A stretch of DNA of 64,000 nt from a phage. A model generated the notes under the pieces. It searched no databases, had not been told where the DNA came from, and was given only the letters and a program-made list of their open reading frames with translations. Positions within the stretch are counted from its first letter, which is position 1, and each line of letters opens with the position of its first letter. Location: the NCBI GenBank assembly GCA_019234695.1, contig GCA_019234695.1_3937.1. One strand, written 5' to 3'. This document shows positions 3,888-60,360 of this stretch, one piece after another. Position numbers and translations under genes: made by a program.

Positions 3888-3914
3888 AAAAGGCTGCTTC
3901 GGCGGCCTTTTTTA
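3888..3914 (+). terminator. intrinsic terminator after rIIB
   Basis: AGGCTGC-TTCG-GCGGCCT followed by TTTTTT. Confidence 0.65.
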
Positions 3915-3943
3915 TTTGTATTTTGTGCAGAGTGCTGTATAAT
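3915..3943 (+). promoter_or_regulatory. promoter-like element
   Basis: TATAAT at 3938-3943 with weak -35; shares TTGTGCAG motif with 8.1 kb repeats. Confidence 0.35.
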
Positions 3944-3974: not shown

Positions 3975-4523
3975 ATGAAGAAATTGATTCTAGGTTTGTG
4001 CTTAATGTTTACAGCACACTTATCTTATGCAGTTGACTGCCCAGAGCTATCAATTAGCCAAAAAGTAAACATGTTAAAAGCTTACCAGTATGGTGAGAAT
4101 AACATGGGTAAAGGTTGGGGTATCACTCTAGCTGCTATAGCCTTACAAGAGTCAGAGTTAGGTCTGAAGGTAGAGAATAAAAAGACACATGATTATGGTA
4201 TTTTCCAGAATCACTTGAAGACTGTTGTAAAGCGTAACAACATTAGTCCTAATGTGGCTAAAAAGAAACTCTTAAAAGACTTTGACTATGCTGCAAAGGA
4301 AACGCACAAAGAACTTGAGTTTTGGACAAAGGTGCATGGTCAGCCAAAGTCAAAGAAGACTTTACAAAAAGTTTTAGCATCATATAATGCTGGGTATTCG
4401 TACAGAATCCCTAAAGCTAAGAAATACTCTCAAGATGTCTATAACAATATGAAAGTTATCGCTCAATGTGAATTTGCAACAAACATTTCTAAGGTAAACC
4501 ATGAAAAAATTAAGAAAGTCTGA
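3975..4523 (+). CDS. secreted lytic transglycosylase-like protein (SLT domain)
   Basis: N-terminal signal peptide MKKLILGLCLMFTAHLSYA; SLT-type motifs ALQESELG, YGIFQ, SYNAG. Confidence 0.55.
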   Translation: MKKLILGLCLMFTAHLSYAVDCPELSISQKVNMLKAYQYGENNMGKGWGITLAAIALQESELGLKVENKKTHDYGIFQNHLKTVVKRNNISPNVAKKKLLKDFDYAAKETHKELEFWTKVHGQPKSKKTLQKVLASYNAGYSYRIPKAKKYSQDVYNNMKVIAQCEFATNISKVNHEKIKKV

Positions 4524-5196
4524 TGAAGTCCTGTGCCACGCTTATGACTTGCATCCTCATGAGTTAGGTCTTGATTCCTGTGTATGGACTCCAGAACAGT
4601 GCAGAGATTTTGAAGACACTGCAAGAGAGGTTGTATGTTCACTTGAAGAGTTCCACACATCAGAACCCATTGTGAACGTTGTGGACAAAGAGACTGGACA
4701 AACTATAGGTGTAAGGCGTGATAGTTTAGTAATAGTCAATAAAGACCTTGTAGAAAAAGGTAACCTCATCTTAGCAGATATTGATGGTGTTCTTACAAAT
4801 TTTAATCACGAAGATTGCTCAACGGAATTGACTGATGGGTCATTCTCACAGTACACTAATCTTCTTGATTCTGTAAGAGCAAAACCAACATATGTTTTCA
4901 ACATTATTGATGCAATTGCAAATCATGCAGCAGTTGGACTCTTGACAGCAAGAGGTGAATCTCAGAGAGTACCTACTGAGATGTTTTTAAGGCATTACAT
5001 AGAGCATGATTACATGCTTTTTATGCGTGGTTTTGGAACTAACTCTATAAGTGCAGAAAGTTTGAAAGTGAGGATGATTCAGTCTTGCATTCTTCCTTAC
5101 TTTAATATAGTATGCTTTATAGAAGATACAGAGAAGAATGTTCAGAAGGTAAACAGAATCCTTCCACACATTAAAACCATGTTAGTTAAACATTGA
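4501..5196 (+). CDS. HAD-like hydrolase/phosphatase candidate
   Basis: ORF track; DxDG motif LADIDGVLTNF typical of HAD motif I; start overlaps preceding gene, exact start uncertain. Confidence 0.35.
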   Translation: MKKLRKSDEVLCHAYDLHPHELGLDSCVWTPEQCRDFEDTAREVVCSLEEFHTSEPIVNVVDKETGQTIGVRRDSLVIVNKDLVEKGNLILADIDGVLTNFNHEDCSTELTDGSFSQYTNLLDSVRAKPTYVFNIIDAIANHAAVGLLTARGESQRVPTEMFLRHYIEHDYMLFMRGFGTNSISAESLKVRMIQSCILPYFNIVCFIEDTEKNVQKVNRILPHIKTMLVKH

Positions 5197-5672
5197 GAGA
5201 AGAACTTATGAACAATATCATTACGGTAGCACTGGACGATACGGCAAACAAATCTGAAGTAGTTCGTAAAATGATTCAAGGTAACTTTGAAGGTAAAATT
5301 TTCCGTGCTGTTAATGTAAAAGCTGATGGCAGTATTCGTGAATACCGTGCATTGTTGAATGTTAAAAAGCACGTAAAAGGTGCTGGTTCAACGACTGCAC
5401 ACAAAGAAAACCTGATGACTATCTATGATATGGGTAAGGCTTCAGAGTTAGGTGCTGAAGGTATCGTTAAAGAAGGTGCTCCGTATCGCTCTTTCAATCT
5501 GGAAACTACTCTTATGCTTTCCTTTACGAGTGGTTCTAAAACAATCACTTATCTCTTTACTGATGCTGCAACGGTATCTGCTATTAAGGATAGCACTGTC
5601 AAAGCTGGCGTAGTTGCTGCTGCAAAAGCTTCTTCGATGGCTGCAAATATCCTTGCTAAAGTCCTCGGTTAA
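5193..5672 (+). CDS. hypothetical protein
   Basis: ORF track; followed by GGCTCC-TTCG-GGAGCC-TTTTT terminator; true start may be the internal ATG at 5208. Confidence 0.5.
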   Translation: MREELMNNIITVALDDTANKSEVVRKMIQGNFEGKIFRAVNVKADGSIREYRALLNVKKHVKGAGSTTAHKENLMTIYDMGKASELGAEGIVKEGAPYRSFNLETTLMLSFTSGSKTITYLFTDAATVSAIKDSTVKAGVVAAAKASSMAANILAKVLG

Positions 5673-7225: not shown

Positions 7226-8005
7226 ATGGGTATTGTAAAAGTTGTGAAAGGTAACTTACTAGCTGCCTTCAAAAACACAGACATTGAGTTAATTGCTCAT
7301 GGTTGCAACTGCCGTAACCTCATGGGTGCCGGAATCGCTCAAAAAATTGCTAAGATTTTCCCAAAAGCTGAAGAAGCTGACCGGAAATTCCATAAAAAGT
7401 TTGGCTACAGCGCTCATGATATCGGATACCAGATGGTTGGTGAGGTGTCACATGCTCGAACGGAGTATGGTTACATTTTTAACCTGTATACACAGTTAGA
7501 TGTTGGGAAGTGTGCATCATACCGATACTTAGTGGAGTCACTAGAAAAACTCCGTAAATTTTGCTGGATGCACAACATTCGTAAGATTGGTTTACCCATG
7601 ATTGGTGCAGGTATCGGTGGTTTAGACGCACAAGCTGTGAAAAGCCTCATTAATAGCGTTATGTACAACGTTGATGTGTACCTATACGTCTATGATGAAG
7701 CAATGGCAACTGTAGTTACCCCTAAGTATGCCACCTCAGCACCACAATTCTATGATGGTGTCGTGCTAAGTGACGGTAAGTCTAACCATGTTACCCTCTA
7801 TCAGCTTGTTGATGGTAAGGTCGAGGCTAGTTACCCTCTGGTTAGTGAGATGGGTATGTGTAATAGTGAAATGTTCTCAATTGACCCGTTTGGTAGATAC
7901 GAAGGGGTGTTCTTTGATAACTACCCAGCAGCATACATCTACACAACAAATCAGGATGAAGTTCACTACTTGCTGTATTCTAAAAAGTTCAAATTCATAA
8001 ACTGA
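7226..8005 (+). CDS. macro-domain protein, TARG1/OARD1-like ADP-ribose hydrolase fold, with ~100 aa C-terminal extension
   Basis: IAHGCNCRNLMGAGIAQKIAKIFP and IGLPMIGAGIGGLDAQAVKSLI resemble TARG1 motifs LAHCISEDCRMGAGIA and MPRIGCGLDRL (recalled from memory). Confidence 0.65.
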   Translation: MGIVKVVKGNLLAAFKNTDIELIAHGCNCRNLMGAGIAQKIAKIFPKAEEADRKFHKKFGYSAHDIGYQMVGEVSHARTEYGYIFNLYTQLDVGKCASYRYLVESLEKLRKFCWMHNIRKIGLPMIGAGIGGLDAQAVKSLINSVMYNVDVYLYVYDEAMATVVTPKYATSAPQFYDGVVLSDGKSNHVTLYQLVDGKVEASYPLVSEMGMCNSEMFSIDPFGRYEGVFFDNYPAAYIYTTNQDEVHYLLYSKKFKFIN

Positions 8006-8035
8006 TTAGTGCTTCACAGCACCTATAATTAATCT

Positions 8036-8085
8036 AAAAAGGCCGCCTAACCCATTGAAAAATTTAAGGTAAGGCGGCCTTTTTC
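8036..8085. terminator. large-loop hairpin with A-tract/T-tract flanks
   Basis: AAAAAGGCCGCC ... GGCGGCCTTTTT with ~24-nt loop after macro-domain gene. Confidence 0.45.
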
Positions 8086-8228
8086 ATTTTCAATTTGTGC
8101 AGGTAGCTGTATAGGTCTGCACAGGTGTCTCAAAAAATCTCATCGCCGGATAGAAAAATCATTTTCAAAACGTGCAGACCCCGCTCAGGTCGGGCAAGAA
8201 AAATCATTTTAGAATTGTGCAGGTAGGT
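8081..8228. repeat. three direct repeats (~28 bp) sharing TCATTTT..TGTGCAG core
   Basis: copies at 8081-8106, 8155-8180, 8201-8228; first copy inside palindrome TGTGCAG..CTGCACA; C-rich tract at 8250-8282. Confidence 0.5.
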
Positions 8229-8401
8229 TTTTATGGGGAGCCAGACCAACCCCTCCCCCCCTCTTACTCCACCTCTCCCCAAAAGTCAAGAGAAAAATTT
8301 GTAGCGGGTTGAAAAATAATTCTTGATTTGTGTTCTGTTTTGTGGTAGTCGTGCGCGCACGTTCATTTCCCAACCTTACAAAAAATATTTAATAAAAACC
8401 G

Positions 8402-8430
8402 TTGACACGACAAACAAGTTTACGTACTAT
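8402..8430 (+). promoter_or_regulatory. sigma70-like early promoter
   Basis: TTGACA-17-TACTAT. Confidence 0.55.
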
Positions 8431-8479
8431 TTGCATCAGACGGGCAAGCAAGCCCACTTCCTAAACTGGAGAATCGAAA

Positions 8480-8686
8480 ATGCTTTATAGTCGTGAATTG
8501 ATGGTTACAACTAACGTTAACACAAAGGTAAAACGTTTTTACATGCAAGTATGTGGCGCATGGTCTAGAATATCAGAGGCTGACTATTGCAACTATGTAG
8601 AAACAGCTATAAACTCTAATTGCTACCTTACAAGAAATACAAGAAAGTACATAAGACAGACAGCAGTTTATTACTACGATGTCTAA
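8480..8686 (+). CDS. hypothetical small protein
   Basis: ORF track; conserved leader CTAAACTGGAGA..AAAATG; upstream TTGACA-17-TACTAT promoter. Confidence 0.5.
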   Translation: MLYSRELMVTTNVNTKVKRFYMQVCGAWSRISEADYCNYVETAINSNCYLTRNTRKYIRQTAVYYYDV

Positions 8687-8687
8687 T

Positions 8688-8777
8688 AAAGTACTTTACA
8701 AGGGGCTTAAAAGCTGATATCTTAAGCCCCAGATAAAGAGCTTTACCAAATCAACCCTTAAACTAGGAGATTCAAAA
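8688..8777 (+). repeat. cassette A copy 1 (stem-loop plus conserved leader)
   Basis: GTACTTTACAAGGGGCTTAAAAG...CTTAAGCCCCAGATAAAGAGCTTTACC...AAACTAGGAGATTCAAAAATG. Confidence 0.7.
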
Positions 8778-9161
8778 ATGGCATATCGTGCACCTAAATT
8801 CATCAACAAAGACAATTTCCGCAATGCACTGGAAAAATCACTTGATGAGAATTTTAAAGGTAACGTTATTGTTGTTCACTCGTTTAATTTTAAGTATGAT
8901 ATTAACGGGAATAAAATCAACCATTACACGGCGACAATGCTAGATGGTACTCTTTCAAGTGAAAAAGCCATTTTACATGCACTTGCTGGACGTGGTAAAA
9001 ACCTGATAAGATGCGATAAGAGACGTTATCAGGGTGGCGCATATGGTTACGATGATGCTGTTTATCATCTTGAAAATATGGGCTATCAAGTAGAAAAAGA
9101 TGGAGTGTCTCAAATAATCGGTAGTGATGGTTACGTAACTATCTTCAAAATTAACAAATAA
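8778..9161 (+). CDS. hypothetical protein
   Basis: ORF track; conserved leader AAACTAGGAGATTCAAAAATG. Confidence 0.55.
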   Translation: MAYRAPKFINKDNFRNALEKSLDENFKGNVIVVHSFNFKYDINGNKINHYTATMLDGTLSSEKAILHALAGRGKNLIRCDKRRYQGGAYGYDDAVYHLENMGYQVEKDGVSQIIGSDGYVTIFKINK

Positions 9162-9246
9162 AGTACTTTACAAGGGGCTTATAGTTCGATAAAGTAAGCC
9201 CCAGATAAAGAACTTTACCACTCAATCCTAAATTGGAGATTCAAAA
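9160..9246 (+). repeat. cassette A copy 2
   Basis: same element; stem GGGGCTTA / TAAGCCCC. Confidence 0.7.
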
Positions 9247-9480
9247 ATGGCTACTATCAAAAACGTTGTAATTCCTGTAAAAACTCGTGATGACGCTCGC
9301 ATCATGGCGAAAAAGTTAGGCGGGAAAGTGGTTGACAACGGAAAACAATCTGCTGTAAGATGGGGTGTGAGGGCTGATAAACAGTTGAAGTTAAAAAATT
9401 CACCAATAAATCTTTTTACATGTGTAAACACTATCGGAAAGACAAATGTATACACGATTTACAAGGGGCTTAAAAGTTGA
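9247..9480 (+). CDS. hypothetical small protein
   Basis: ORF track; conserved leader; 3-prime end runs into cassette A hairpin. Confidence 0.5.
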   Translation: MATIKNVVIPVKTRDDARIMAKKLGGKVVDNGKQSAVRWGVRADKQLKLKNSPINLFTCVNTIGKTNVYTIYKGLKS

Positions 9481-9536
9481 TACCTTAAGCCCCAGATAAA
9501 GAGCTTTACCACTAATCCTAAACTGGAGATTCAAAA
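9455..9536 (+). repeat. cassette A copy 3
   Basis: same element; overlaps 3-prime end of ORF 9247..9480. Confidence 0.7.
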
Positions 9537-9833
9537 ATGAAATTATCAAATAAAGTTCGTGAAAATCTAAGCAAATTACTCAACAAAATTGATTTCATTG
9601 AAACATCAAGAAATAGCCATGATGTTATGGAATGGTTACACGGCAAAATAAAAGGTCGTCGTGTAGTGATTTGCTTATGGAATAGTTGCAGGGAGTATAA
9701 AAAACCTGTATTGCAAGTCAATATCTATGATGATACTTTTAAAAGCCCTGTAAAGTCTAAAAGCGATTTATTAGAATCCTATGAGATAACTGTAAATGGC
9801 AAAGTATCACGTAAAGAGGAAACACCATGTTAA
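9537..9833 (+). CDS. hypothetical protein
   Basis: ORF track; conserved leader. Confidence 0.5.
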   Translation: MKLSNKVRENLSKLLNKIDFIETSRNSHDVMEWLHGKIKGRRVVICLWNSCREYKKPVLQVNIYDDTFKSPVKSKSDLLESYEITVNGKVSRKEETPC

Positions 9834-10159
9834 TGACTGGTATCACTGCAATCATTGCCATTTTCGCGCTATATAAGGCATATAAAGCCTATAATCTAGC
9901 AAATAAGGCAATCACACAGCAGGTTAGCAATAACCTTGTAATGAGCTTTCTAGAGCGGTTGAGCGATGAACAATTAAAGCGGTTAGAAATGAGCTTTAGA
10001 TTCAGGGCGAGAACTTATCAAATCAGCGACATTTTCAAAGATGATTTTCAATTAGTCGATGATTATAATTCTCTGATAAATGCTTTAAATATTAGTGACT
10101 TAAAAGACTATCATACTGTAATTGTTCAAGAGTTGAGCAAACGAAAACAAAACTGTTGA
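9827..10159 (+). CDS. hypothetical protein (N-terminal TM)
   Basis: ORF track; GAGGA RBS; hydrophobic N-terminus. Confidence 0.45.
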   Translation: MLMTGITAIIAIFALYKAYKAYNLANKAITQQVSNNLVMSFLERLSDEQLKRLEMSFRFRARTYQISDIFKDDFQLVDDYNSLINALNISDLKDYHTVIVQELSKRKQNC

Positions 10160-10184
10160 CACTGGTTTTTAGATAGATTAAATT
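10156..10184 (+). promoter_or_regulatory. cassette B promoter (copy 1)
   Basis: TTGACA-17-TAAATT, then hairpin and conserved RBS. Confidence 0.55.
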
Positions 10185-10248
10185 ACACATCAACGGGGAG
10201 GCAATAAACACCCCACTAAATAAAGTCCTTAAACTAGGAGATTCTAAA

Positions 10249-10653
10249 ATGGCTATTAATAATCGTGAGTTGTCAATCTTAAAAGCACGTTTAACCGTTA
10301 ATCGAATCAATGTTATCACGTCATCAGCACCGGATGAAACATTGCACAACATTATCGGGAAGATTCAAAGTGTTATCTTAGACGTTGAAAACGTAAAAAA
10401 CTCATTGTCTGACGTTGCAGCAGGCATCACGCTAGACGGTGCACAATATGAAATGGCTGACATGTTAGGCAAATCAAAGGTAATGAATAAAGAGCTTGAT
10501 TTAAAAATGTTTCGTTTTGCTGTTAAAGTGTGGCTATCTGTTGAGTATGACGCAAATTTTGCAATCGCTGACTTTTTCGCAACATGGTTGCAACGTAATT
10601 TGACAAATCATGATTTTCGCGATGTCTGTGATGCAATTTATGCAGAACTTTAA
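10249..10653 (+). CDS. hypothetical protein
   Basis: ORF track; cassette B promoter and conserved leader upstream. Confidence 0.55.
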   Translation: MAINNRELSILKARLTVNRINVITSSAPDETLHNIIGKIQSVILDVENVKNSLSDVAAGITLDGAQYEMADMLGKSKVMNKELDLKMFRFAVKVWLSVEYDANFAIADFFATWLQRNLTNHDFRDVCDAIYAEL

Positions 10654-10661
10654 AAATTTTA

Positions 10662-10690
10662 TTGACACTGATTTTTAGATAGATTAAATT
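10662..10690 (+). promoter_or_regulatory. cassette B promoter (copy 2)
   Basis: TTGACA-17-TAAATT, then hairpin GGGGAGGGAATGACCTTCCCC and conserved RBS. Confidence 0.55.
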
Positions 10691-10754
10691 ACACATCAAC
10701 GGGGAGGGAATGACCTTCCCCACTAAGTAAAGTCCTTAAACTAGGAGATTCAAA

Positions 10755-10952
10755 ATGGCTATTATCAACGGTTTAACCATTGAAACCACGCACATCAAAG
10801 ACATTAAAGTTGGTGATATAGTTCTTTCCCACGGCGTAGAAAAAACAGTCACTGCAAAGGATATCAAAGATGATTCTTTCATGGGTAGAACTCTCTTCGG
10901 TGATTCTTATTGCTTAGGTTATCTTGCAGTTTTAAAAGTTGTCAAAAATTAA
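10755..10952 (+). CDS. hypothetical small protein
   Basis: ORF track; cassette B upstream. Confidence 0.5.
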   Translation: MAIINGLTIETTHIKDIKVGDIVLSHGVEKTVTAKDIKDDSFMGRTLFGDSYCLGYLAVLKVVKN

Positions 10953-10957
10953 CTGAT

Positions 10958-11046
10958 AAAGTACTTTACAAGGGGCTTAAAAGTTCGATAAAGTAAGCCC
11001 CAGATAAAGAGCTTTACCACTAAATCCTTAAACTAGGAGATTCAAA
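10958..11046 (+). repeat. cassette A copy 4
   Basis: same element upstream of ORF 11047. Confidence 0.7.
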
Positions 11047-11589
11047 ATGAAATGCTTTCACGGTACTACTCAAGAAAACTTTATCAACCTGATTAATAAC
11101 GGTGATAAACCATCAGGTGTATGGAATTGTTCGGATATGGACGGCAATTTTTACGTGTACCCAGAAAATAAACTCTATGGTGATGATGAGGAAGAGATAG
11201 CATCGGAAGGTATCCAGCAAGCTCTAGGAAATGCCACTATCACGGCAGCTTTTCAGATGAAAACTCAAAATATTGTTATCTTAGAACTTGACATTCCAGA
11301 GGATGAGCTAAATGATGATTATTCTTGTGATAACATGTCAAATATAGCAAGCTTTACAGAGTACTTTGATGTAAATTGGATTAAAAAGGTCTATACAACA
11401 GAGTTCAACGCTATGTATTCACCTTTTTGTCTCCCTTCACTGGATAACCCAAATTTAAATTATCTTGATGAAACATTGGAGCTACTTGCTAAAAGTATCC
11501 AACAATCCGACAGTATTCAGGTTTTTTGTGACATCATGGATACACTGACAGAAAACATTGTAGAGAGTGATTTAAAGGTCTTTTTCTAA
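11047..11589 (+). CDS. hypothetical protein
   Basis: ORF track; cassette A and conserved leader upstream. Confidence 0.55.
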   Translation: MKCFHGTTQENFINLINNGDKPSGVWNCSDMDGNFYVYPENKLYGDDEEEIASEGIQQALGNATITAAFQMKTQNIVILELDIPEDELNDDYSCDNMSNIASFTEYFDVNWIKKVYTTEFNAMYSPFCLPSLDNPNLNYLDETLELLAKSIQQSDSIQVFCDIMDTLTENIVESDLKVFF

Positions 11590-11655
11590 AAACCTATACA
11601 TTCACCTTATAAACACTGATTAACCCCTTACAGGGGCTTTTAGAGGGCTTAAATC

Positions 11656-11889
11656 ATGCTTACAACCATTTATCTCATCCTTTCTATCTGTAGCGGTCAT
11701 TCATGTGACTTTAAAGGGCTTGAAGAGTTTACAGGAAGTAAAGAAAATGCTATTCAGGTTTGCCAGATAGCAAGACAAGACTATCCCGCCAGTGATGATA
11801 TACAATGCTACTTTAAGACAGAAGATGAAGAAGGAATCTATTTCGACAGTGTTGATGGTCAATATGAAATTATCATTGAAAAAGACTAG
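11656..11889 (+). CDS. hypothetical small protein
   Basis: ORF track. Confidence 0.4.
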   Translation: MLTTIYLILSICSGHSCDFKGLEEFTGSKENAIQVCQIARQDYPASDDIQCYFKTEDEEGIYFDSVDGQYEIIIEKD

Positions 11890-11915
11890 ACAAGCCTGAT
11901 AAAAGTCTGTAAATT
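11887..11915 (+). promoter_or_regulatory. cassette B promoter (copy 3)
   Basis: TAGACA-17-TAAATT, then conserved hairpin and RBS. Confidence 0.45.
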
Positions 11916-11979
11916 ACACATCAACGGGGAGGGAATGACCTTCCCCACTAAATAAAGTCCTAAACTGGAGATTCTAAAA

Positions 11980-12321
11980 ATGGCTTATGTAACCGTAATT
12001 ACTGATAAAGAGAATTCATCTTGGTCAACTCAGGTTAGTGACAAGATGTCACCTATGCAGTGCCTAAAATACTTTGAGCAGTGGAATAAAGGCGAGGATG
12101 TAAGCCCATTTCAAGTGATGCAGGTTATCCATGTAGATAACGAAGGGAATAAAACGGTTTTAAATAGTGAGTACTACGCAAGCCGTTTTGAAACTAGAAG
12201 TAAAACAATGAAGCTTTTACGTGAATCCGGTTATGCCCATATCGCCGCGCTAATCTGGGATGACCTGCTAAAAAGTCAGCGTATCAGCTATGTAAAACCT
12301 GAAAAAATATTCATCAGTTAA
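11980..12321 (+). CDS. hypothetical protein
   Basis: ORF track; cassette B upstream. Confidence 0.55.
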   Translation: MAYVTVITDKENSSWSTQVSDKMSPMQCLKYFEQWNKGEDVSPFQVMQVIHVDNEGNKTVLNSEYYASRFETRSKTMKLLRESGYAHIAALIWDDLLKSQRISYVKPEKIFIS

Positions 12322-12352
12322 TCAATAACTTATAAAAAACTTTTAAAAAGTG

Positions 12353-12381
12353 TTGACAATACCCCTTGACAATAGTACATT
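12353..12381 (+). promoter_or_regulatory. promoter-like element (tandem TTGACA boxes)
   Basis: TTGACA-17-TACATT; second TTGACA at 12366. Confidence 0.35.
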
Positions 12382-12449
12382 TGTTCGAGGGGGTTTATCT
12401 AAAAGGGATTCACTTAAAAGATTCTTTATAGATAAACTTAAAAAATTGC

Positions 12450-12478
12450 TTGCAATCATCTTCCAAAAACTTTATAGT
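12450..12478 (+). promoter_or_regulatory. sigma70-like promoter
   Basis: TTGCAA-17-TATAGT upstream of 12521 ORF. Confidence 0.5.
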
Positions 12479-12520
12479 TTATCTCAAGCAATAATGCTTT
12501 CCTAAACTGGAGATTCAAAA

Positions 12521-13051
12521 ATGAACAAGTTCAAAGCTATCAACTACATTCGCTCAAATAGTGTCATGTCTAAGCCTGTTAAGGATACCTACGAATTCCG
12601 TTGCAATGGTGAACACTTTGCTACCATCACCAAATCAAATAACGGGGCTTATTATATCCATCGTCGTAATGTTTCTACGGTTGTAGTTTCTAACTTTATG
12701 CAAGCTGTAGCGGAACTCCTCCCGCTCTTCTTAGAAAAGTATGCCGTACAGTGTGAAAGTGTTCGTGAATGCACTAAAACAGTGTTAAACGGTTATCGTA
12801 TGGCTTACGAGCGCTCTTTAAAGAATCTCAATAAATACTACAAAGCACCGGAAGGCACTTCATCCACAGCCTACGGGGTAGGGGGCTTCAATGTCAGCCT
12901 TTACGAAGTGGAAGAAATCGAGCTTTATGACCATCGCCCAAATGGTTACGCTAAGACACTGGGAGATGGGTTAATGCTGAATATCAAGAACTTAGAAAAA
13001 ACTTTAAGAGAAATTGAAAAAGATATTGACGAGACAATCAAAAGTCTGTAA
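12521..13051 (+). CDS. hypothetical protein
   Basis: ORF track; TTGCAA-17-TATAGT promoter and conserved leader upstream. Confidence 0.55.
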   Translation: MNKFKAINYIRSNSVMSKPVKDTYEFRCNGEHFATITKSNNGAYYIHRRNVSTVVVSNFMQAVAELLPLFLEKYAVQCESVRECTKTVLNGYRMAYERSLKNLNKYYKAPEGTSSTAYGVGGFNVSLYEVEEIELYDHRPNGYAKTLGDGLMLNIKNLEKTLREIEKDIDETIKSL

Positions 13052-13054
13052 ATT
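13026..13054 (+). promoter_or_regulatory. cassette B promoter (copy 4)
   Basis: TTGACG-17-TAAATT, then conserved hairpin and RBS. Confidence 0.5.
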
Positions 13055-13116
13055 ATCAATCAACGGGGAGGGAATAACCTTCCCCACTAAGTAAAGTCCT
13101 AAACTGGAGATTCAAA

Positions 13117-13380
13117 ATGGAACACGTAGAACTGACCACACTCTTACAAATCGCAACCGACAAGGAAGACGTAGCATTATTTCACCGTATAGAGAGTGAT
13201 TTGTTCAATGGTGAAATCATCAAAGAATCTTACGAAGTTGTCGGATTCAAAGATGGTAAAGCATTTGGCTTTTTTGACCTCGACAAAAGCAAAGCGGTTA
13301 CAAAGTACGATGTTCTATCTTGTGAGATTCTTACAAAATACAACGAAAAAAGGCTTGCAACATACGCCAACATGCAGTAA
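13117..13380 (+). CDS. hypothetical protein
   Basis: ORF track; cassette B upstream. Confidence 0.55.
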   Translation: MEHVELTTLLQIATDKEDVALFHRIESDLFNGEIIKESYEVVGFKDGKAFGFFDLDKSKAVTKYDVLSCEILTKYNEKRLATYANMQ

Positions 13381-13383
13381 ATT
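13355..13383 (+). promoter_or_regulatory. cassette B promoter (copy 5)
   Basis: TTGCAA-17-TAAATT, then conserved hairpin and RBS. Confidence 0.5.
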
Positions 13384-13445
13384 ACTAATCAACGGGGAGG
13401 GATGACCTCCCTACTAAATAAAACCTTAAACTAGGAGATTCTAAA

Positions 13446-13694
13446 ATGGCTACTATCCGCGCAACTGTTAACGAATTCGGCTTTTGCTCTCTGGATGTTA
13501 AATTTGACCTTGTAGGTACTGACAACGCCTTTGAGATGGTGAAAGGTCTTATCAGTCAGACCATCAAAGACTATAACCCTTCTGATGAGTTCTGGAAAGA
13601 AACAAAACAGGAAGTTCTCAAAGATGGTTATTCTTATCACTATTGGGGTGAAAAAATTGTCTCCCTATACTACGACAAAGATGGCACTAACTAA
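13446..13694 (+). CDS. hypothetical protein
   Basis: ORF track; cassette B upstream; followed by stem-loops. Confidence 0.55.
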   Translation: MATIRATVNEFGFCSLDVKFDLVGTDNAFEMVKGLISQTIKDYNPSDEFWKETKQEVLKDGYSYHYWGEKIVSLYYDKDGTN

Positions 13695-13704
13695 TCGACG
13701 CAAC

Positions 13705-13757
13705 GGGGCTAAATAGCCCCAGATACCTTAAAAGCTCCTTCTCATAGGGGCTTTTTT
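13705..13757 (+). terminator. stem-loops and T-tract after last small ORF
   Basis: GGGGCTAAATAGCCCC hairpin, then CATAGGGGCTTTTTT. Confidence 0.4.
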
Positions 13758-13759
13758 AC

Positions 13760-15290
13760 GTCTATAAAGAGACTCTATACAATCTCTTTCCTTCCCTTTC
13801 CAGAATCTATCCCACTGATTCGATAGAATCTATCTCGTACCTTAAAAGCAATAACTCTATAGCTTACTCTATAGCCCCTTATCAAATCAACTTAAATAAA
13901 AGCCAATAACCCCAGAAAGGGGATGGCCCATTTAAACGCTCTATAAAGCCCTATAACAGCCTTATCAACCTAACTTAAGGGATTGCATTACCTAACCATT
14001 AAAAGCCCTTTATAAAGCTTCCTAGAGGCTTAAAAGAATCTTATAAGGGTGTAAGCTTTATCATCTCGTTAGCTATCTTGTGAATAACTCAATAGCCCTT
14101 GATAGTCTCTAAAAAGTATGTTATAGGGGCTGTTAAGTTACTTTGAAGTTACGTAAAAGAGGCTATAAAGTTACGTAAATGCTAGCCCCCTTAACATTTT
14201 CTTAACAATTTCTTAACAAACCCTACATAGTTATGCTTGTTAGAGACTTATTAGCCCCTTGTTAAATCTCTGTTAAGACCACGTAAAAGCCTTGTAAGAG
14301 TCTTTAGCATAGCCTTTAAAGCCTCTGTAAAGCTCTATAAAGAGGTATCTGTACAGTTGGGGTGTAATTACTAGGAAGAGGCTTAAAAGGGCTTACAAGG
14401 AGCTATAGAGAGCTTTTAAGAGGTATGTTTAGAGAATCACTAAGAAAGAGAGGGAACGATAAGAAAAGAGATAGTGACCTTGTTAATAGCTTGTTAAAAA
14501 GATTAAACACTTGTTAGGAACTTGTTAATTATCCCTACAAAATAACTCTTTAAAATTAACTTGTTAGCTCTTGTTAGTCATCTGTTAAGCCTCTGTAAAG
14601 ACTATGTATCAACTGTTAAGAAACTGTTAAGCCCTTGTTAGTTCTGTTAAGAATCTGTTAAGACCTTTGAAGAGTTGTTAAGAAGATGTGAGAACTGTTA
14701 AGAGATTGTTAAGGATATTTTAAAATTTTGCAAAGTACTTGTAAGGGAGCTGTTAAGGGCTACCAAGCAGATATACATCTTCTACAGATATTTTTCAGTT
14801 CCTTCAAAGACCCTAAAAAATGACTTGATAGTCCTATTTTATAAAAATTTTAAAAATCTGAATAATTACCTAGACAGTCTTTTAAAAAATACAGGTAGAA
14901 ACAGGCTTATAAGATACCTTGTTAGTACCGTGTTAGACCTTGTGAGATAAGGTCTGTAAAGATATTCCTGTTAAGTTTGTTAAAACAGTCTATATAGAGG
15001 CTTAGTAATACCTAGTGAACACCTATAGAGAGTATCATAGCTGACATAGAGATTAAGGGGTGTATAGAGGCTTCTAAGAGCGTATAGAGAGATGGTTAAG
15101 GTGATTGTATAGGTTGTTAAGAAGGCTTGTTAGAAGAGTGTTTAGAGGGCTTATTAAAGGGCTAGTTAGAAGGCTTATACAGGGGGGCTATTAAGACCAC
15201 TAGATAGTTACTAAGATACTATATAGTACTATATAACTATATAGAGAGTAAGACTAAGGAGGTTGTTAAGAAGGATAGATATTTTGTTCA
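13760..15290. repeat. ORF-free iteron-rich region (degenerate CTGTTAAG / CTTGTTAG repeats; TATAGAG and TATAAAG motifs)
   Basis: no ORF of 60 aa or more on either strand across ~1.68 kb; about 35 copies of TGTTA(A/G), densest at 14470-14720. Confidence 0.7.
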
Positions 15291-15377
15291 CATATGCTGG
15301 TGACCCAGAGGTTGGGACAACCGATAAAATTTTATAAAAATTAAAAAGCCCCCGATTAAGGAGGCTCTTAAGATATT

Positions 15378-16001
15378 TTAAATCAGTGTTTCCAGAACTG
15401 TTTTAAGGGATGACTTAGTTGTCTGATAAAAATGAGTGAATCCGTTGTTGTTATCGAATATCTGCATCATGATATCATCTCCCTTGATTGGGTATACTCG
15501 GATATCATAGTGAAAACCATTAAAGACACAAGACCCATTACAGAATGCACTAAAGTCATCCACTGAGATATACTCTTCATGTCCTGTGATTTTTATACAA
15601 ACACCTTTACTCGGTCTCTTAGGGTTGATATCTTCCATCACAGACATACTCTGTCCACCAAGAGACACCATAGTGACCACTTTACGGTTCTTCTGTCTAA
15701 AGTACATCTTAACTTTCTGCAAAGTGTCTTCATAGAACGGATAAGACCTTTCTACAAAGATTCCTTCAAGTGGCTCTTTACCATTTTCAACTTCTCTGGT
15801 ATGTCGTACTGCAAAGATAATTTGTTGGAACCAGTCAAGATTTTCTTCGGAGAGTGCTTCTCGAACATCACTCCAGTCAAGGACTAAGTAGTTACCTTCA
15901 ACTTCTTTTAAGTTATCTTTTTCCATATCTATCACACCATTATCGTAAAACTTGATATTCTGGTACTGCGAATTTATTACTATTGTTCTTGATGAGGTCA
16001 T
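15378..16001 (-). CDS. hypothetical protein
   Basis: ORF track; first gene of leftward block; start may be an internal ATG. Confidence 0.5.
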   Translation of the reverse strand: MTSSRTIVINSQYQNIKFYDNGVIDMEKDNLKEVEGNYLVLDWSDVREALSEENLDWFQQIIFAVRHTREVENGKEPLEGIFVERSYPFYEDTLQKVKMYFRQKNRKVVTMVSLGGQSMSVMEDINPKRPSKGVCIKITGHEEYISVDDFSAFCNGSCVFNGFHYDIRVYPIKGDDIMMQIFDNNNGFTHFYQTTKSSLKTVLETLI

Positions 16002-58544: not shown

Positions 58545-58930
58545 TGCCATCCTTCCATACCTTACTTTACCACACCTAACCATACCTAACCAAACTATAC
58601 CATACAATACCTTGTTAAAAGACCCTTTTAAAGACCTTTTAAAAAGGTAAGTCTCATTTTAATGTAGCTGAGACTAACTACCCATACATTACCTTACCAT
58701 ACCAGACCTCACCCTACCTTAACTTACCTTACTCTATCCTACCAAACACCACTTAAAAACCCTCTTAGAAGACTCTTAAGTGATGTAATCGGATTTTTAT
58801 GTAGCTCCGATTAACTACCCATACCAAGCCTAACCTGACCGCACCAAACCTTACAACACCACACCATACCTGACCATACCAAACCTCATTAAAAGACCCT
58901 CTTAAAGACCTTTTAAAAAGGAGCCTCCGA
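58545..58930. repeat. G-depleted (C/A/T-rich) tracts with conserved-loop hairpins, region 1
   Basis: plus strand nearly lacks G over long CCATACC-type runs; hairpins at ~58660-58687 and ~58787-58814 share loop TTTWATGTAGC. Confidence 0.6.
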
Positions 58931-58941
58931 AGAGGCTACCT
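58914..58941 (-). terminator. terminator-like hairpin downstream of 58949..59389 (minus strand)
   Basis: minus strand reads AGCCTCTTCGGAGGCT then CCTTTTT. Confidence 0.45.
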
Positions 58942-58948
58942 AGTCAAC

Positions 58949-59389
58949 TTAGAAAGGTTTTCTACGTTGCTTGTTAATGTTAGCTTTCATAGCAGCTAAA
59001 TGGTTTTGCTGTTCAATCAGTCGTGAGCGTTCTTGATGGCTAAGTGCCATAGTGTTCACATTCTCAATTGCTTGAGTGGCTTGCTTTAAAGCGCGACCAA
59101 TCTTACCAGACATTTTACGTTTTGCAATAGTTGCTTGATGCTTAGGTTCAACCACACGATAACCAACACCCATTGAAGCAACCAGATAAATCTTCTCTTC
59201 TTTAAGAAGCTTCTCAATAAACTTCTCAAGTCGGTTTAGACGTGTAAGCGCATAAGCCTTCATTTCATCTTCGTACTTAACAATGTCACCTTGATAAGTT
59301 GGCTTCACAATACCTAAGAAGGTGTCCATCTCAGAGTGTGATACAGTGTCACCGTAACTAAACTTTGCTGCTAATGCTTTTGTATTCAT
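58949..59389 (-). CDS. hypothetical protein
   Basis: ORF track; followed on minus strand by hairpin plus T-tract. Confidence 0.5.
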   Translation of the reverse strand: MNTKALAAKFSYGDTVSHSEMDTFLGIVKPTYQGDIVKYEDEMKAYALTRLNRLEKFIEKLLKEEKIYLVASMGVGYRVVEPKHQATIAKRKMSGKIGRALKQATQAIENVNTMALSHQERSRLIEQQNHLAAMKANINKQRRKPF

Positions 59390-59391
59390 AA

Positions 59392-59997
<606 letters not shown>

Positions 59998-60074
59998 TTA
60001 GTTGATTGTTAAGTTGTTTGTAAAGAACCCTCAACAGAAGACTCTTTAGAAACTTGGTAGATTTTTAACGTGGC

Positions 60075-60360
60075 TACTACCATCCACCCATACCATACCG
60101 AACCTTACCTTACCAAACCAGACCGCGCCTTACCAAACCAGACCAAACATTACTTTACCCTACCTCATTAAAAAACCCTCTTAAAGACCTTTTAAAAAGG
60201 TAAGTCTCATTTTAATGTAGATGAGACTAACTACCCATACTGTACCGCACCTGACCCGACCTGACCAGACCTAGCATTACCGTGCCACACCGTACCGAAC
60301 AGAACACTACCATACCTCACATCACTTAAAAACCATCTTAGAAGACTCTTAAGTGATGCT
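60075..60360. repeat. G-depleted tracts with conserved-loop hairpin, region 2
   Basis: 60165-60240 near-identical to 58615-58687; CACTTAAAAACC.TCTTAGAAGACTCTTAAGTG at 60322-60358 matches 58749-58787. Confidence 0.6.

What the first reader, a model, noticed from the sequence alone, without database searches (positions are those of the whole stretch)
8395..13450. Two families of promoter / stem-loop / RBS cassettes drive 11 small ORFs
Eleven consecutive small ORFs share a near-identical translation-initiation leader (AAACTAGGAGATTCAAAAATG). Cassette A (4 copies) is a hairpin GTACTTTACAAGGGGCTTAAAAG..CTTAAGCCCCAGATAAAGAGCTTTACC followed by the leader. Cassette B (5 copies) is a TTGACA-like -35, 17-bp spacer, TAAATT -10, then a 5-prime UTR hairpin CAACGGGGAGGGAATGACCTTCCCCAC and the leader. 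This looks like the mobile regulatory cassettes (promoter-early stem-loops) described in hyperplastic regions of T4-type phages, which shuffle small accessory genes. The proteins have no recognisable domains and are candidates for host-takeover or anti-defence functions.
Basis: partly seen in the sequence, partly recalled or inferred. Interest (0 to 1): 0.55.

Follow-up and report, generated by a model that had tools for sequence, protein, structure and literature searches.

The report
Repeated promoter–hairpin–RBS cassettes shuffle phage genes
A Felix O1-type phage drives 11 of 13 small genes near one genome end from two families of repeated promoter + RNA-hairpin + ribosome-site modules, which also act as crossover points that swap genes between related phages; this matches a system known from T4-type phages but has not been described for this phage group.

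Summary
The window is a Felixounavirus. Positions 8395-13760 hold 13 unrelated small + strand ORFs; 11 carry a near-identical leader found nowhere else in the 64 kb. Cassette A has 4 copies and cassette B has 5, plus two B-like variants.

Cassette A is more than a hairpin. In 40 distinct copies from 16 genomes, TTTACA is always followed after 17 nt (two copies 18) by TAnnnT lying in the hairpin loop. Only the three key -10 positions are invariant.

Every B copy has -35/17 nt/-10 geometry, and its hairpin starts exactly 10 nt after the -10, at the predicted 5' end of the transcript. B hairpins fold better on the sense strand.

Relatives show the shuffling. Genes come and go between cassettes, the closest relative changes from gene to gene, and three indel junctions map inside the leader or cassette. 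The only two invariant junctions are the two junction types without a cassette.

This matches the published definition of PeSLs (promoter-early stem-loops) of T4-like phages, in an unrelated subfamily and without sequence homology. The repeats were listed in 2010 only as direct repeats. Promoter activity, hairpin role and mini-circles remain untested.

Verdict: a new member of a known kind, moderate interest. One cargo protein has an ADP-ribosyltransferase-like predicted fold.

The parts
8402..8482 (+). First unit of the array (B-like variant). -35 TTGACA 8402-8407, -10 TACTAT 8425-8430, hairpin GGGCAAGCAAGCCC 8442-8455, diverged leader (GGAG 8468-8471), ATG 8480.
   Evidence: Relatives carry TTGACT-17-TAGTAT-TTGCAT-CAACGGGG... 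at the same place.
8480..8686 (+). ORF F16 (68 aa), unknown function.
   Evidence: phrog_5293
8684..8780 (+). Cassette A copy 1. Stop TAA, -35 TTTACA 8695-8700, stem arms 8702-8710 / 8722-8730, -10 TATCTT 8718-8723 in the loop/3' arm, leader (GGAG 8766-8769), ATG 8778.
   Evidence: -24.3 kcal/mol, z -4.1
8778..9161 (+). ORF F10 (127 aa), unknown function.
9159..9249 (+). Cassette A copy 2. -35 9167-9172, -10 TAAAGT 9190-9195, leader variant CCTAAATTGGAG, ATG 9247.
9247..9480 (+). ORF F7 (77 aa). Truncated by a private 88-bp deletion; it now ends at a TGA inside the loop of cassette A copy 3.
9457..9539 (+). Cassette A copy 3. It lacks the 5' outer arm because the deletion ends exactly at the -35. 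-35 9458-9463, -10 TACCTT 9481-9486, ATG 9537.
   Evidence: (weaker fold, -17.8 kcal/mol)
9537..10159 (+). ORFs F0 (9537-9833) and F2 (9827-10159), overlapping by 7 nt. There is no cassette between them, and this junction is invariant in 15/15 genomes.
10156..10251 (+). Cassette B copy 1. -35 TTGACA 10156-10161, -10 TAAATT 10179-10184, degenerate hairpin 10195-10214, leader, ATG 10249. F6 is absent here; the crossover lies in GGAGATTCTAAAATG.
10249..10653 (+). ORF F3 (134 aa), unknown function.
10662..10757 (+). Cassette B copy 2. -35 TTGACA 10662-10667, -10 TAAATT 10685-10690, hairpin GGGGAGGGAATGACCTTCCCC 10701-10721, leader, ATG 10755.
   Evidence: 100% identical to wV8. A sharp identity switch falls at 10653/10660.
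10755..10952 (+). ORF F11 (65 aa), unknown function.
10950..11049 (+). Cassette A copy 4. -35 10965-10970, 18-nt spacer, -10 TAAAGT 10989-10994, ATG 11047.
11047..11589 (+). ORF F4 (180 aa). ADP-ribosyltransferase-like predicted fold; 91% identical to Bas63 bas63_0107.
11590..11889 (+). Cassette-less junction (small hairpin CCCCTTACAGGGG + CTTTT, own SD GAGGG) followed by ORF F8 (11656-11889, 77 aa). The F4->F8 junction is invariant in 14/14 genomes.
11887..11982 (+). Cassette B copy 3. -35 TAGACA 11887-11892, -10 TAAATT 11910-11915, hairpin 11926-11946, ATG 11980. It is chimeric relative to wV8 (B 5' part joined to an A-type leader).
11980..12321 (+). ORF F1 (113 aa), unknown function.
12322..12523 (+). 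200-nt spacer. Extra promoter-like site at 12353-12381 (TTGACA-17-TACATT), inverted repeat 12393-12437, then a B-type promoter TTGCAA-17-TATAGT (12450-12478) without hairpin, leader, ATG 12521.
   Evidence: (I10)
12521..13051 (+). ORF F5 (176 aa). A distinct allele: 99.4% identical to phage E9, about 77% to the other Felixounavirus relatives.
13026..13119 (+). Cassette B copy 4. -35 TTGACG 13026-13031 (inside F5), -10 TAAATT 13049-13054 (its TAA is the F5 stop codon), hairpin 13065-13085, ATG 13117.
13117..13380 (+). ORF F12 (87 aa), unknown function.
13355..13448 (+). Cassette B copy 5. -35 TTGCAA 13355-13360 (inside F12), -10 TAAATT 13378-13383 (contains the F12 stop codon), hairpin 13394-13412, ATG 13446.
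13446..13694 (+). ORF F9 (82 aa), last gene of the array.
13705..13757 (+). End of the array. Promoter-less chimeric hairpin CAACGGGGCTAAATAGCCCCAGATA (13705-13720), then the only canonical hairpin + U-tract terminator (13730-13757).
   Evidence: -27.2 kcal/mol, z -4.7. Corresponds to Felix O1 terminator t23.

Best explanation
The region is the terminal early-gene array of a Felix O1-like phage. It is built from self-contained expression modules that work like the PeSLs of T4-type phages.

Each module runs from the stop codon of the upstream gene to the next ATG. It contains (i) a host sigma70-type promoter, (ii) a G/C-rich stem-loop and (iii) a standardised leader: an A-rich tract, CCU(U), AAAYU, (A)GGAG, then 8-9 nt to the ATG.

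In cassette B the promoter (TTGACA-like, 17 nt, TAAATT) comes first. The hairpin starts 10 nt after the -10, so it sits within about 2-4 nt of the predicted 5' end of the module's own transcript. There it most likely stabilises and insulates the mRNA. It cannot be an efficient terminator, because it would then abort its own transcript.

In cassette A the promoter (TTTACA, 17 nt, TAnnnT) is interleaved with the hairpin. The -35 abuts the 5' arm and the -10 lies in the loop and 3' arm. The hairpin therefore forms only in RNA read through from upstream, where it would act as an attenuator, a 3' protecting structure or a processing structure. Transcripts started at A itself begin just past the hairpin.

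Because 60-100 nt of near-identical sequence recur every 300-600 bp in direct orientation, and are shared across relatives, ordinary homologous recombination between modules deletes, inserts and swaps the intervening genes without breaking their expression.

Shown here: the repeats; the invariant promoter geometry; conserved, partly compensated stems; the sense-strand bias of B; and breakpoints inside cassettes.

Inferred, not shown: promoter activity, start sites, what each hairpin does, and early timing.
For: Identity and context:
- Felixounavirus; 256-259 related records, only one of which covers 80% or more of the region.
- The array ends about 430 nt before the terminal repeat annotated in Pr103Blw.

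Repeats beyond chance. The leader is array-specific (1 of 79 other ORFs).

Cassette A promoter:
- 40 distinct copies from 16 genomes (Felixounavirus, Mooglevirus, Kolesnikvirus) all have TTTACA + 17 nt (two copies 18) + TAnnnT.
- They use 13 different hexamers; only T1, A2 and T6 are invariant while the rest of the loop varies.
- TTTACW-N17-TAYWAT is the published PeSL promoter consensus of the T4/PST pair.

Cassette B promoter: every copy has TAnnnT exactly 6 nt before CAACGGG and a TTGACA-like hexamer exactly 17 nt upstream, even inside coding sequence. Two GenBank records independently annotate it as a promoter.

Hairpins:
- A stem is paired in 98.6% of cells, with compensatory G-C>U-A and C-G>U-G>U-A changes, and folds at about -24 kcal/mol, z about -4.
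- B: 63 contexts and 39 different hairpin sequences all fold at the same position. Sense is more stable than antisense (-12.6 vs -10.7 kcal/mol, 34/49, Wilcoxon 5e-5).
- No T-run follows either hairpin; the only canonical terminator is at 13730-13757.

Shuffling:
- The 13 cargo ORFs are unrelated to each other.
- Gene presence/absence occurs between cassettes.
- The best-matching relative changes gene by gene: wV8 96-100% for F10, F0, F2, F11, F4 and F8; E9 99.4% for F5, against about 77% in the other Felixounavirus relatives; HY02 96.8% for F9.
- Sharp switches fall at 8760, 10248, 10653/10660, about 11950 and about 12520.
- Crossovers are resolved to the 15-nt GGAGATTCTAAAATG (F6 indel), to the stretch between hairpin and SD (F32 indel, B x A), and to B x B (the F11-F4-F8 deletion in Felix O1).
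- The only invariant adjacencies, F0->F2 (15/15) and F4->F8 (14/14), are the two junction types without an A/B cassette; one F4->F8 copy scored as B.

Timing: Felix O1 RT-PCR places ORFs 16, 20, 21 and 22 of this cluster at maximal expression at 5 min.
Against: - No transcription-start, reporter or half-life data exist for any Ounavirinae phage in the searched literature, so promoter function is inferred from sequence only.
- The generic promoter scan is not enriched in this AT-rich region overall (26 sites against 18.6 +/- 4.8 expected).
- Cassette A's -10 hexamers are weak (3-5 of 6), and T6 is also constrained by the stem.
- Most stem columns never vary. Covariation rests on 3 cells in A, and the copies are related, so the shuffle controls are not probabilities.
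- A shows no sense-strand bias.
- Felix O1 RT-PCR puts other array genes (ORFs 14, 17, 19, 23) at 25 min.
- Some identity switches lie inside genes (about 10450 in F3, about 13540 in F9).
- The adjacency test has only two cassette-less junctions (Fisher p = 0.33).
- Seven variable adjacency types lack a recognised cassette, mostly at doubtful tiny ORFs.
Confidence: 0.72

Rival explanations
1. Cassette A is not a promoter. The array is transcribed as long polycistronic early RNA from a few strong promoters (8402, the B units, 12353/12450). The long irregular A hairpin (about 20 bp in three helices) is an intercistronic processing and stability signal, like the RNase III sites between T7 early genes. 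Cleavage would leave a 3' hairpin that protects the upstream message.
For: - The A hairpin folds as a 6+5+9 bp helix with internal loops, about -24 kcal/mol, z about -4. That size and shape are typical of RNase III substrates (established knowledge of T7 R0.3-R1.3 sites).
- It always sits between a stop codon and the next SD.
- A's -10 hexamers are weak.
- The outer arms (AAAGTACTTTA / TAAAGAGCTTT) are highly conserved.
Against: - T, A and T at fixed 17-nt spacing from an invariant TTTACA are conserved across 13 different hexamers, while neighbouring loop bases vary. An RNA-processing role does not predict this.
- The window's private 88-bp deletion removed the 5' outer arm but stopped exactly at the -35.
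- The A' variant lacks complementarity in the outermost helix.
- The two roles are not mutually exclusive.
Confidence: 0.2
2. The inverted repeats are DNA operators. A phage-encoded (or host) dimeric protein binds GGGGCTTAA...TTAAGCCCC over the A promoter core and GGGGAGGG...CCTTCCCC just downstream of the B start site. This would shut off all early promoters together once the early phase is over.
For: - The inverted repeats lie where a repressor would block RNA polymerase (over the spacer and -10 in A, at about +4 to +24 in B).
- A hairpins are equally stable on both strands, as expected for a DNA palindrome.
- The PeSL authors themselves speculated about a protein binding GGGG...CCCC.
Against: - A and B arms differ in sequence, and there are 39 distinct B hairpins with variable length and loops. 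Pairing is kept, not sequence.
- Compensatory changes and G.U wobbles that would be A.C on the other strand occur, and B has a significant sense-strand bias. Both point to RNA.
- No candidate regulator was identified.
Confidence: 0.08
3. The conserved 25-nt leader is primarily a recognition site for one trans-acting factor: a leader-specific endoribonuclease or translational repressor, in the manner of T4 RegB (cuts GGAG in early SDs) or RegA. That factor would switch the whole gene set off together. Recombination would be a side effect.
For: - The leader is conserved well beyond what ribosome binding needs, and is confined to this array.
- All copies contain GGAG.
- A small helix UCC(U)/(A)GGA pairs the SD. 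Its two 1-nt indels are perfectly linked in 181 leaders (114 + 67, 0 mixed).
- The Erwinia phage array has a different standard leader with the same CCUU/AAGG pairing and one compensatory CCUC/GAGG copy.
Against: - No RegB or RegA homolog was found. The 'RegB-like' label in a relative belongs to a T4 vs.1 (SLT-like) homolog. I did not scan every ORF of the window.
- The helices are weak (-1 to -4 kcal/mol).
- The linked indels are 6 nt apart and may simply be two old alleles.
- Frequent recombination or gene conversion can by itself keep the leaders uniform.
Confidence: 0.12
4. The repeats are leftovers of tandem duplication of one ancestral gene with its upstream region, or belong to an active mobile element (MITE, integron or homing type) with its own recombinase.
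For: - Direct repeats recur at a regular 300-600 bp spacing.
- Cassette A has a palindromic core flanked by a direct repeat, TAAAG(T/A)(A/G)CTTTAC.
Against: - The 13 ORFs fall into 13 different families with no detectable similarity at E <= 1e-5 and 13 different top-scoring PHROG families.
- The ORFs scanned (window 3975-5672 and 7226-13694) showed no integrase, transposase or homing endonuclease domain.
- The flanks are identical in all copies, so they are not target-site duplications.
- The cassettes were found only in Ounavirinae-type records.
Confidence: 0.03

Closest known systems
PeSLs (promoter-early stem-loops) of T4-like phages RB49/phi1, T4/PST and KVP40/nt-1 (Arbiol et al. 2010, PMC2839356; Comeau et al. 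2014, PMC4122927)
   Same: - Intergenic modules of about 100 bp: upstream stop codon, sigma70-type -35/N17/-10, poly-G/poly-C stem-loop with G.T pairs, SD and ATG.
- The stem-loop lies between/over the promoter boxes (cassette A) or downstream of the -10 (cassette B).
- Cassette A's promoter (TTTACA-17-TAnnnT) fits the T4/PST PeSL consensus TTTACW-N17-TAYWAT.
- Clustered upstream of small ORFan genes in a plastic region.
- Indels between close relatives are bounded by the modules, with crossovers between the -10 and the ATG.
   Different: - Different phage subfamily (Ounavirinae, ~87-kb genomes), with no sequence similarity to T4-type PeSLs.
- Only two tightly conserved families plus one uniform 25-nt leader, rather than about 50 looser copies per genome.
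- One contiguous array next to a genome terminus, not several hyperplastic regions.
- The B hairpin lies at or after the predicted start site, so it is a 5'-UTR hairpin, not a terminator before the promoter.
- Neither hairpin has a U-tract.
- Promoter and terminator activity and mini-circles were shown experimentally for PeSLs, but not here.
Direct repeats listed for Felix O1 (Whichard et al. 2010, PMC3185647), DR_1-DR_9 in the wV8 GenBank record, and 'promoter'/'terminator' features in the ASO1A and AYO145A records
   Same: These are the same sequences. The Felix O1 57-bp repeat is cassette A and its 39-bp repeat is the cassette B promoter. ASO1A annotates B as a TTGACA(N15-18)TATAAT-like promoter followed by a WebGeSTer 'terminator'.
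   Different: - The Felix O1 paper reported them only as repeats.
- They were not included in that paper's promoter list, and it states that temporal regulation is unknown.
- Cassette A's promoter, the common leader, the family-wide conservation and the link to gene shuffling were not described in any paper I could find.
5'-terminal stabilising stem-loops of E. coli and phage mRNAs (ompA 5' UTR; Emory, Bouvet and Belasco 1992, recalled from my own knowledge)
   Same: The cassette B hairpin would lie within about 2-4 nt of the predicted 5' end. That is the geometry known to protect mRNA from 5'-end-dependent RNase E attack.
   Different: This rests on a predicted start site only. No half-life data exist.
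RNase III processing sites between the early genes of phage T7
   Same: Long, irregular intercistronic hairpins in a host-polymerase-transcribed early region made of small non-essential genes at a genome end.
   Different: T7 sites contain no promoter and are not repeated near-identically. Here a conserved -35/-10 pair is interleaved with the hairpin. Cleavage has not been tested.
Integron gene cassettes / phage morons
   Same: Small accessory genes that can be swapped in and out as units while remaining expressed.
   Different: There is no integrase or attC-type site. The homology is supplied by the expression signals themselves, each gene carries its own promoter, and all genes point the same way as the flanking transcription.

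Membership tests
PeSL (promoter-early stem-loop) cassettes | [quoted passage not shown] | tested here: met
   11 modules in the window. 84 genuine A copies and 63 distinct B contexts in 16 genomes.
PeSL (promoter-early stem-loop) cassettes | Sigma70-type -35 / ~17 nt / -10 sequence | tested here: met
   B: TTGACA-like -35, 17 nt, TAAATT in every copy. A: TTTACA, 17 nt (two copies 18), TAnnnT in 40/40 distinct copies. This is sequence evidence only.
PeSL (promoter-early stem-loop) cassettes | Demonstrated early promoter activity with host RNA polymerase | not testable with these tools
   The only data are end-point RT-PCR in Felix O1, with mixed 5-min and 25-min classes.
PeSL (promoter-early stem-loop) cassettes | Stable stem-loop, typically poly-G...poly-C with G-T pairs, at one of five positions relative to the promoter | tested here: met
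   A: GGGGCTTAA/TTAAGCCCC lying between the -35 and over the -10. B: GGGGAGGG/CCTTCCCC downstream of the -10. G.U pairs are present (compared).
PeSL (promoter-early stem-loop) cassettes | The stem-loop terminates or attenuates upstream transcription | not testable with these tools
   Neither hairpin is followed by a T-run and neither is called by the terminator scan. The B hairpin lies in its own transcript, so strong termination is unlikely (inference).
PeSL (promoter-early stem-loop) cassettes | Located in plastic regions upstream of ORFans, and associated with indels between close relatives, with crossovers inside the module | tested here: met
PeSL (promoter-early stem-loop) cassettes | Formation of excised mini-circles by recombination between flanking modules | not testable with these tools
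   Needs inverse PCR on infected cells.
PeSL (promoter-early stem-loop) cassettes | Host genome is a T4-like phage (the group in which the family was defined), or sequence homology to described PeSLs | tested here: not met
   The window is a Felixounavirus. Cassette searches hit only Ounavirinae-type records. It is therefore filed as 'works like a PeSL', an independent lineage.
Intrinsic (Rho-independent) terminators | G+C-rich hairpin immediately followed by a U-tract | tested here: not met
   A is followed by AGATAAAG and B by ACTAAATAAAG. No + strand terminator is called in 7900-14300. Only 13730-13757 fits.
Targets of a T4 RegB-type endoribonuclease | The phage encodes a RegB homolog | tested here: inconclusive
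   The ORF labelled 'RegB-like' in a relative has no RegB Pfam match and is a T4 vs.1 homolog. The remaining ORFs of the window were not all scanned.
RNase III intercistronic processing sites (T7 early type) | About 20-bp irregular helix between cistrons that is cleaved by RNase III | tested here: inconclusive
   The helix geometry fits for cassette A. Cleavage cannot be tested, and the outer helix is dispensable in copy 3 and in A' variants.
Tandem gene duplication array | Cargo genes are paralogs | tested here: not met
   13 ORFs fall into 13 unrelated families.

The most novel reading that the evidence does not exclude
The array is a subfamily-wide, recombinase-free 'plug-and-play' gene-cassette system, conserved from Felixounavirus to the Erwinia-infecting Kolesnikvirus. 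In it the standardised module does three jobs at once.

1. It is an autonomous early expression unit.
2. It is a portable homology arm for gene exchange.
3. Through its invariant leader, with an SD held in a small anti-SD-like helix, it is a common handle by which a still unidentified factor (nuclease or translational repressor) switches the whole accessory gene set off together.

In cassette A, the promoter-in-a-hairpin would additionally let the RNA distinguish read-through transcripts from self-initiated ones.
Probability: 0.15. Interest if true: 0.65.

Novelty: new member of a known kind. Interest (0 to 1): 0.42.

Why it matters
- It extends PeSL-type 'regulatory cassettes as recombination linkers' from T4-like phages to an unrelated myovirus subfamily that is widely used for Salmonella/E. 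coli typing, biocontrol and therapy. That argues the strategy has evolved more than once.
- The Ounavirinae version is unusually clean: two cassette families, one leader, one array, and more than 250 sequenced relatives. This makes it a good natural data set for measuring how short homologies drive accessory-gene turnover.
- It offers a simple sequence beacon for finding early accessory (host-takeover or counter-defence) genes in this group.
- It fills part of a gap stated in the Felix O1 genome paper (how early transcription is organised) with specific, testable start sites.
- The modules are compact, apparently strong and context-insulated promoter/5'-hairpin/RBS parts that may be useful for phage engineering.

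Tried and rejected
- **Rfam** (E <= 1) on 7900-15500: only chance-level hits, none on a cassette.
- **RegB hypothesis for the GGAG leader.** The 'T4 RegB-like' label in phage Mushroom led to window ORF 3975-4523. That ORF has a signal peptide, only a sub-threshold SLT match and no RegB domain, and it is the homolog of T4 vs.1/ORF 61.4. The label is a neighbour mis-transfer.
- **Alternative promoter for cassette A.** I tested the upstream TAAAGT (which overlaps the stop codon) as the -10, which would place the hairpin in the 5' UTR as in B. No consistent -35 lies 16-18 nt upstream in the coding sequence, so this was rejected (rows for A).
- **Tandem duplication of paralogs:** rejected, because the cargo ORFs are unrelated.
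- **Adjacency enrichment test:** the direction is as predicted, but it is not significant because only two cassette-less junctions exist (Fisher p = 0.33).
- **Sequence searches for cargo function.** Pfam gave none; PHROGs were all 'unknown function'; PDB sequence search of F4, F5, F10 and F3 gave nothing meaningful.
- **Literature.** No transcriptome or TSS map of any Ounavirinae phage, and no paper linking PeSLs to this group, was found. The wV8 paper does not discuss its DR features.

Full report
**1. What the window is**

The region matches 256-259 phage records, all of the Felix O1 type (Felixounavirus, Mooglevirus and relatives). Identity is 84-92% but coverage is patchy: only one record covers 80% or more of the region. 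The window is therefore a Felix O1-like myovirus.

The terminal repeat annotated in phage Pr103Blw maps to window 14185-14764. The gene array at 8395-13760 therefore lies at one physical end of the genome and is transcribed toward it. Non-coding DNA flanks it at 8006-8400 and at 13760-15378.

**2. The observation**

It is correct.

- Eleven copies of the leader (CCT(T)AAAYT(A)GGAGATTCWAAA(A)ATG) precede ORFs between 8480 and 13446. Both length variants are far beyond chance (0 of 100 shuffles), and the leader is absent from the rest of the 64 kb.
- Cassette A has four copies and cassette B five.

Corrections:

- The array has 13 ORFs. Two lack the leader: 9827-10159, whose ATG overlaps the upstream stop, and 11656-11889, which has its own RBS.
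- The first unit (8402-8482) and the unit before ORF 12521 (12450-12523) are B-like variants. The latter has lost its hairpin.
- The array ends at a true terminator, 13730-13757.

**3. Cassette B**

I collected every copy from the window and 15 relatives (loci L001-L015). All genuine copies have TAnnnT exactly 6 nt before CAACGGG. All also have a TTGACA-like hexamer (TTGACA, TTGACG, TTGCAA, TAGACA, TTGATT or TTGACT) exactly 17 nt further upstream. This holds even where the -35 lies inside the upstream gene and the gene's stop codon forms the first bases of the -10.

All 63 distinct contexts fold into a hairpin that begins exactly 10 nt after the -10. There are 39 different hairpin sequences, with dG from -7.5 to -16.6 kcal/mol. 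With a start site about 7 nt after the -10, the hairpin sits 2-4 nt from the 5' end of the transcript.

The hairpins are more stable on the sense strand than on the antisense strand (-12.6 vs -10.7 kcal/mol; 34 of 49; Wilcoxon p = 5e-5, with the caveat that the copies are related). This points to a role in the RNA. No T-run follows the hairpin.

A hairpin inside its own transcript cannot be an efficient terminator. A 5'-terminal stabiliser or insulator is the most economical reading; this is inference, based on the known behaviour of 5' stem-loops in E. coli mRNAs.

**4. Cassette A**

In 40 distinct copies from Felixounavirus, Mooglevirus and the Erwinia phage Tian (Kolesnikvirus), TTTACA is invariant. 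It is followed after 17 nt (two copies 18) by TAnnnT. Thirteen different hexamers occur, and only T1, A2 and T6 never change, whereas neighbouring loop positions take 3-4 states.

TTTACW-N17-TAYWAT is the PeSL promoter consensus reported for the T4/PST pair.

The stem is paired in 98.6% of cells, with compensatory G-C>U-A (Erwinia copies) and C-G>U-G>U-A changes. An A' variant has different inner arms (GGGGTTATC/GATAGCCCC).

As RNA the whole element folds into a 6+5+9 bp helix of about -24 kcal/mol, z about -4.

Because the -10 lies in the loop and 3' arm, transcripts started at A begin just after the hairpin. The hairpin therefore exists only in read-through RNA from upstream.

A private 88-bp deletion in the window removed the end of ORF F7 and the 5' outer arm, but stopped exactly at the -35. 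This fits the promoter, rather than the outer helix, being the indispensable part.

A shows no strand bias, so a DNA-level role cannot be excluded.

**5. Leader**

Across 181 leaders there are two forms: CCT-AAAYT-GGAG (114 copies) and C(C/T)TT-AAAYT-AGGAG (67 copies). No mixed form occurs. The extra T and A would pair with each other and extend a small UCC/GGA helix that holds the SD.

The Erwinia phage has a different standard leader (ACAAACAACCCTTAYAAAGGAATCAAAA-ATG) with the same CCUU/AAGG pairing and one CCUC/GAGG compensatory copy.

The helices are weak, and the linkage could be historical, so I treat this as suggestive only.

**6. Recombination**

- The 13 cargo ORFs are unrelated to each other.
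- Gene order is conserved across genomes, but single genes or blocks are present or absent between cassettes. The cassette type in front of a given gene can differ between phages.
- Per-gene identity is mosaic. wV8 is 96-100% identical for F10, F0, F2, F11, F4 and F8, but 91.9% for F3. E9 is 99.4% identical for F5, against about 77% in the other Felixounavirus relatives, and 98.1% for F12. HY02 is 96.8% identical for F9, where wV8 is 67%.
- At nucleotide resolution the switches fall at 8760, 10248, 10653/10660, about 11950 and about 12520, all at cassette or leader positions. Two more lie inside genes.
- Three junctions were resolved. The absence of F6 is explained by an exchange within the shared 15-nt GGAGATTCTAAAATG. 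The F32 indel is a B x A exchange between hairpin and SD. Felix O1's lack of F11-F4-F8 is a B x B exchange.
- The only two invariant adjacencies, F0->F2 (15/15) and F4->F8 (14/14), are the two junction types without an A/B cassette (one F4->F8 copy scored as B). Of the 42 variable adjacency types, 35 carry a cassette. With only two constant junctions the Fisher test is not significant (p = 0.33).

**7. Comparison with what is known**

The architecture and behaviour match the PeSLs of T4-like phages point by point. However, the phage belongs to a different subfamily, and the cassettes have no detectable similarity outside Ounavirinae-type records.

The sequences themselves were noted before:

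- as 57-bp and 39-bp direct repeats in the Felix O1 genome paper, which did not list them as promoters and stated that temporal regulation was unknown;
- as DR_1-9 in the wV8 record;
- for B only, as 'promoter' plus 'terminator' in the ASO1A and AYO145A records.

I found no paper that interprets them as PeSL-like modules or links them to gene shuffling, and no transcriptome of any Ounavirinae phage. This literature search covers open-access papers only.

**8. Cargo**

Pfam finds nothing, and all 13 ORFs belong to PHROG families of unknown function. PDB sequence searches of four of them found nothing.

ORF F4 (11047-11589) is 91% identical to bas63_0107. If the PhageMaP preprint numbers genes by locus tag, this is its g107, which was more essential on E. 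coli S17-1 and was noted to resemble the NAD lobe of RNA 2'-phosphotransferase.

The result gives limited support to the 'host-takeover' idea for one gene. None of the PhageMaP-validated counter-defence genes lies in the array.

**9. Verdict**

- The best explanation is PeSL-like autonomous early expression modules that double as homologous-recombination linkers (confidence about 0.7).
- Within that explanation, the B promoter is very likely real, the A promoter is likely real, and the specific hairpin functions remain open.
- It is a new member of a known kind, previously unremarked in this phage group, and of moderate interest.

Noticed in passing
[not shown]
   Followed up: partly
window 7226-8005 (+): A macro-domain protein (Pfam PF01661, E 6e-7), annotated 'phosphatase' in relatives, sits immediately upstream of the array. 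A macro domain (an ADP-ribose binding/hydrolase fold) close to a putative ADP-ribosyltransferase may be a functional pair.
   Followed up: no
window 9456/9457 (junction), compared with L007 1439-1526: A private 88-bp deletion removes the last ~20 codons and the stop of ORF F7 plus the 5' outer arm of cassette A copy 3. It ends exactly at the -35 TTTACA. F7 now terminates at a TGA inside the hairpin loop.
   Followed up: yes
window 8760-8769 and the other 10 leaders; L009 (Erwinia phage Tian) leaders: The SD is held in a small helix with an upstream anti-SD-like CCU(U). Two 1-nt indels that would pair with each other are perfectly linked in 181 leaders. The Erwinia phage has a different leader with the same pairing and one compensatory CCUC/GAGG copy.
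   Followed up: partly
window 3901-3941, 8073-8113, 8204-8233: A conserved motif TTTGTGCAG-N4-CTGTATA follows the terminators after rIIB and after the macro-domain gene (two exact copies and one diverged; 10 matches at <=3 mismatches against 2.8 expected). It may be a phage-specific promoter or another signal.
   Followed up: partly
window 3975-4523 (+): This ORF is labelled 'T4 RegB-like' or 'RegB' in several public records. It is in fact the homolog of T4 vs.1/ORF 61.4: it has a signal peptide and a weak SLT lytic-transglycosylase match. The RegB label looks like a mis-transfer from the neighbouring gene.
   Followed up: yes
window 12322-12520: The 200-nt spacer before ORF F5 holds an extra near-consensus promoter (12353-12381, TTGACA-17-TACATT) followed by a 17-nt inverted repeat (12393-12437). 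The B-type promoter at 12450 has lost the hairpin that relatives keep. The spacer may encode a small RNA or a leader peptide (a 46-aa ORF is called here in Michonne and KPS64).
   Followed up: no
window 12521-13051 and 13446-13694: ORFs F5 and F9 each exist as two deeply divergent allele classes among otherwise close phages (99% vs ~77%, and 97% vs ~67% nucleotide identity). This suggests whole-gene replacement.
   Followed up: partly
window 13760-15378: About 1.6 kb without ORFs of 60 aa or more, between convergent transcription units. It contains the presumed terminal repeat (14185-14764, 91.8% identical to the Pr103Blw repeat) and many short CTATAAAG-like repeats.
   Followed up: partly
window 58555-60358: Three copies of a 194-nt repeat (64-77% identity) with adjacent 70-nt repeats, in a region of negative GC skew. 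Not examined.
   Followed up: no
public records GU169904 (Staphylococcus phage SA1) and MG065664 (Campylobacter phage A132): These records contain Felix O1-type cassette or array sequence at 91-96% identity. They are probably contaminated or chimeric entries.
   Followed up: no
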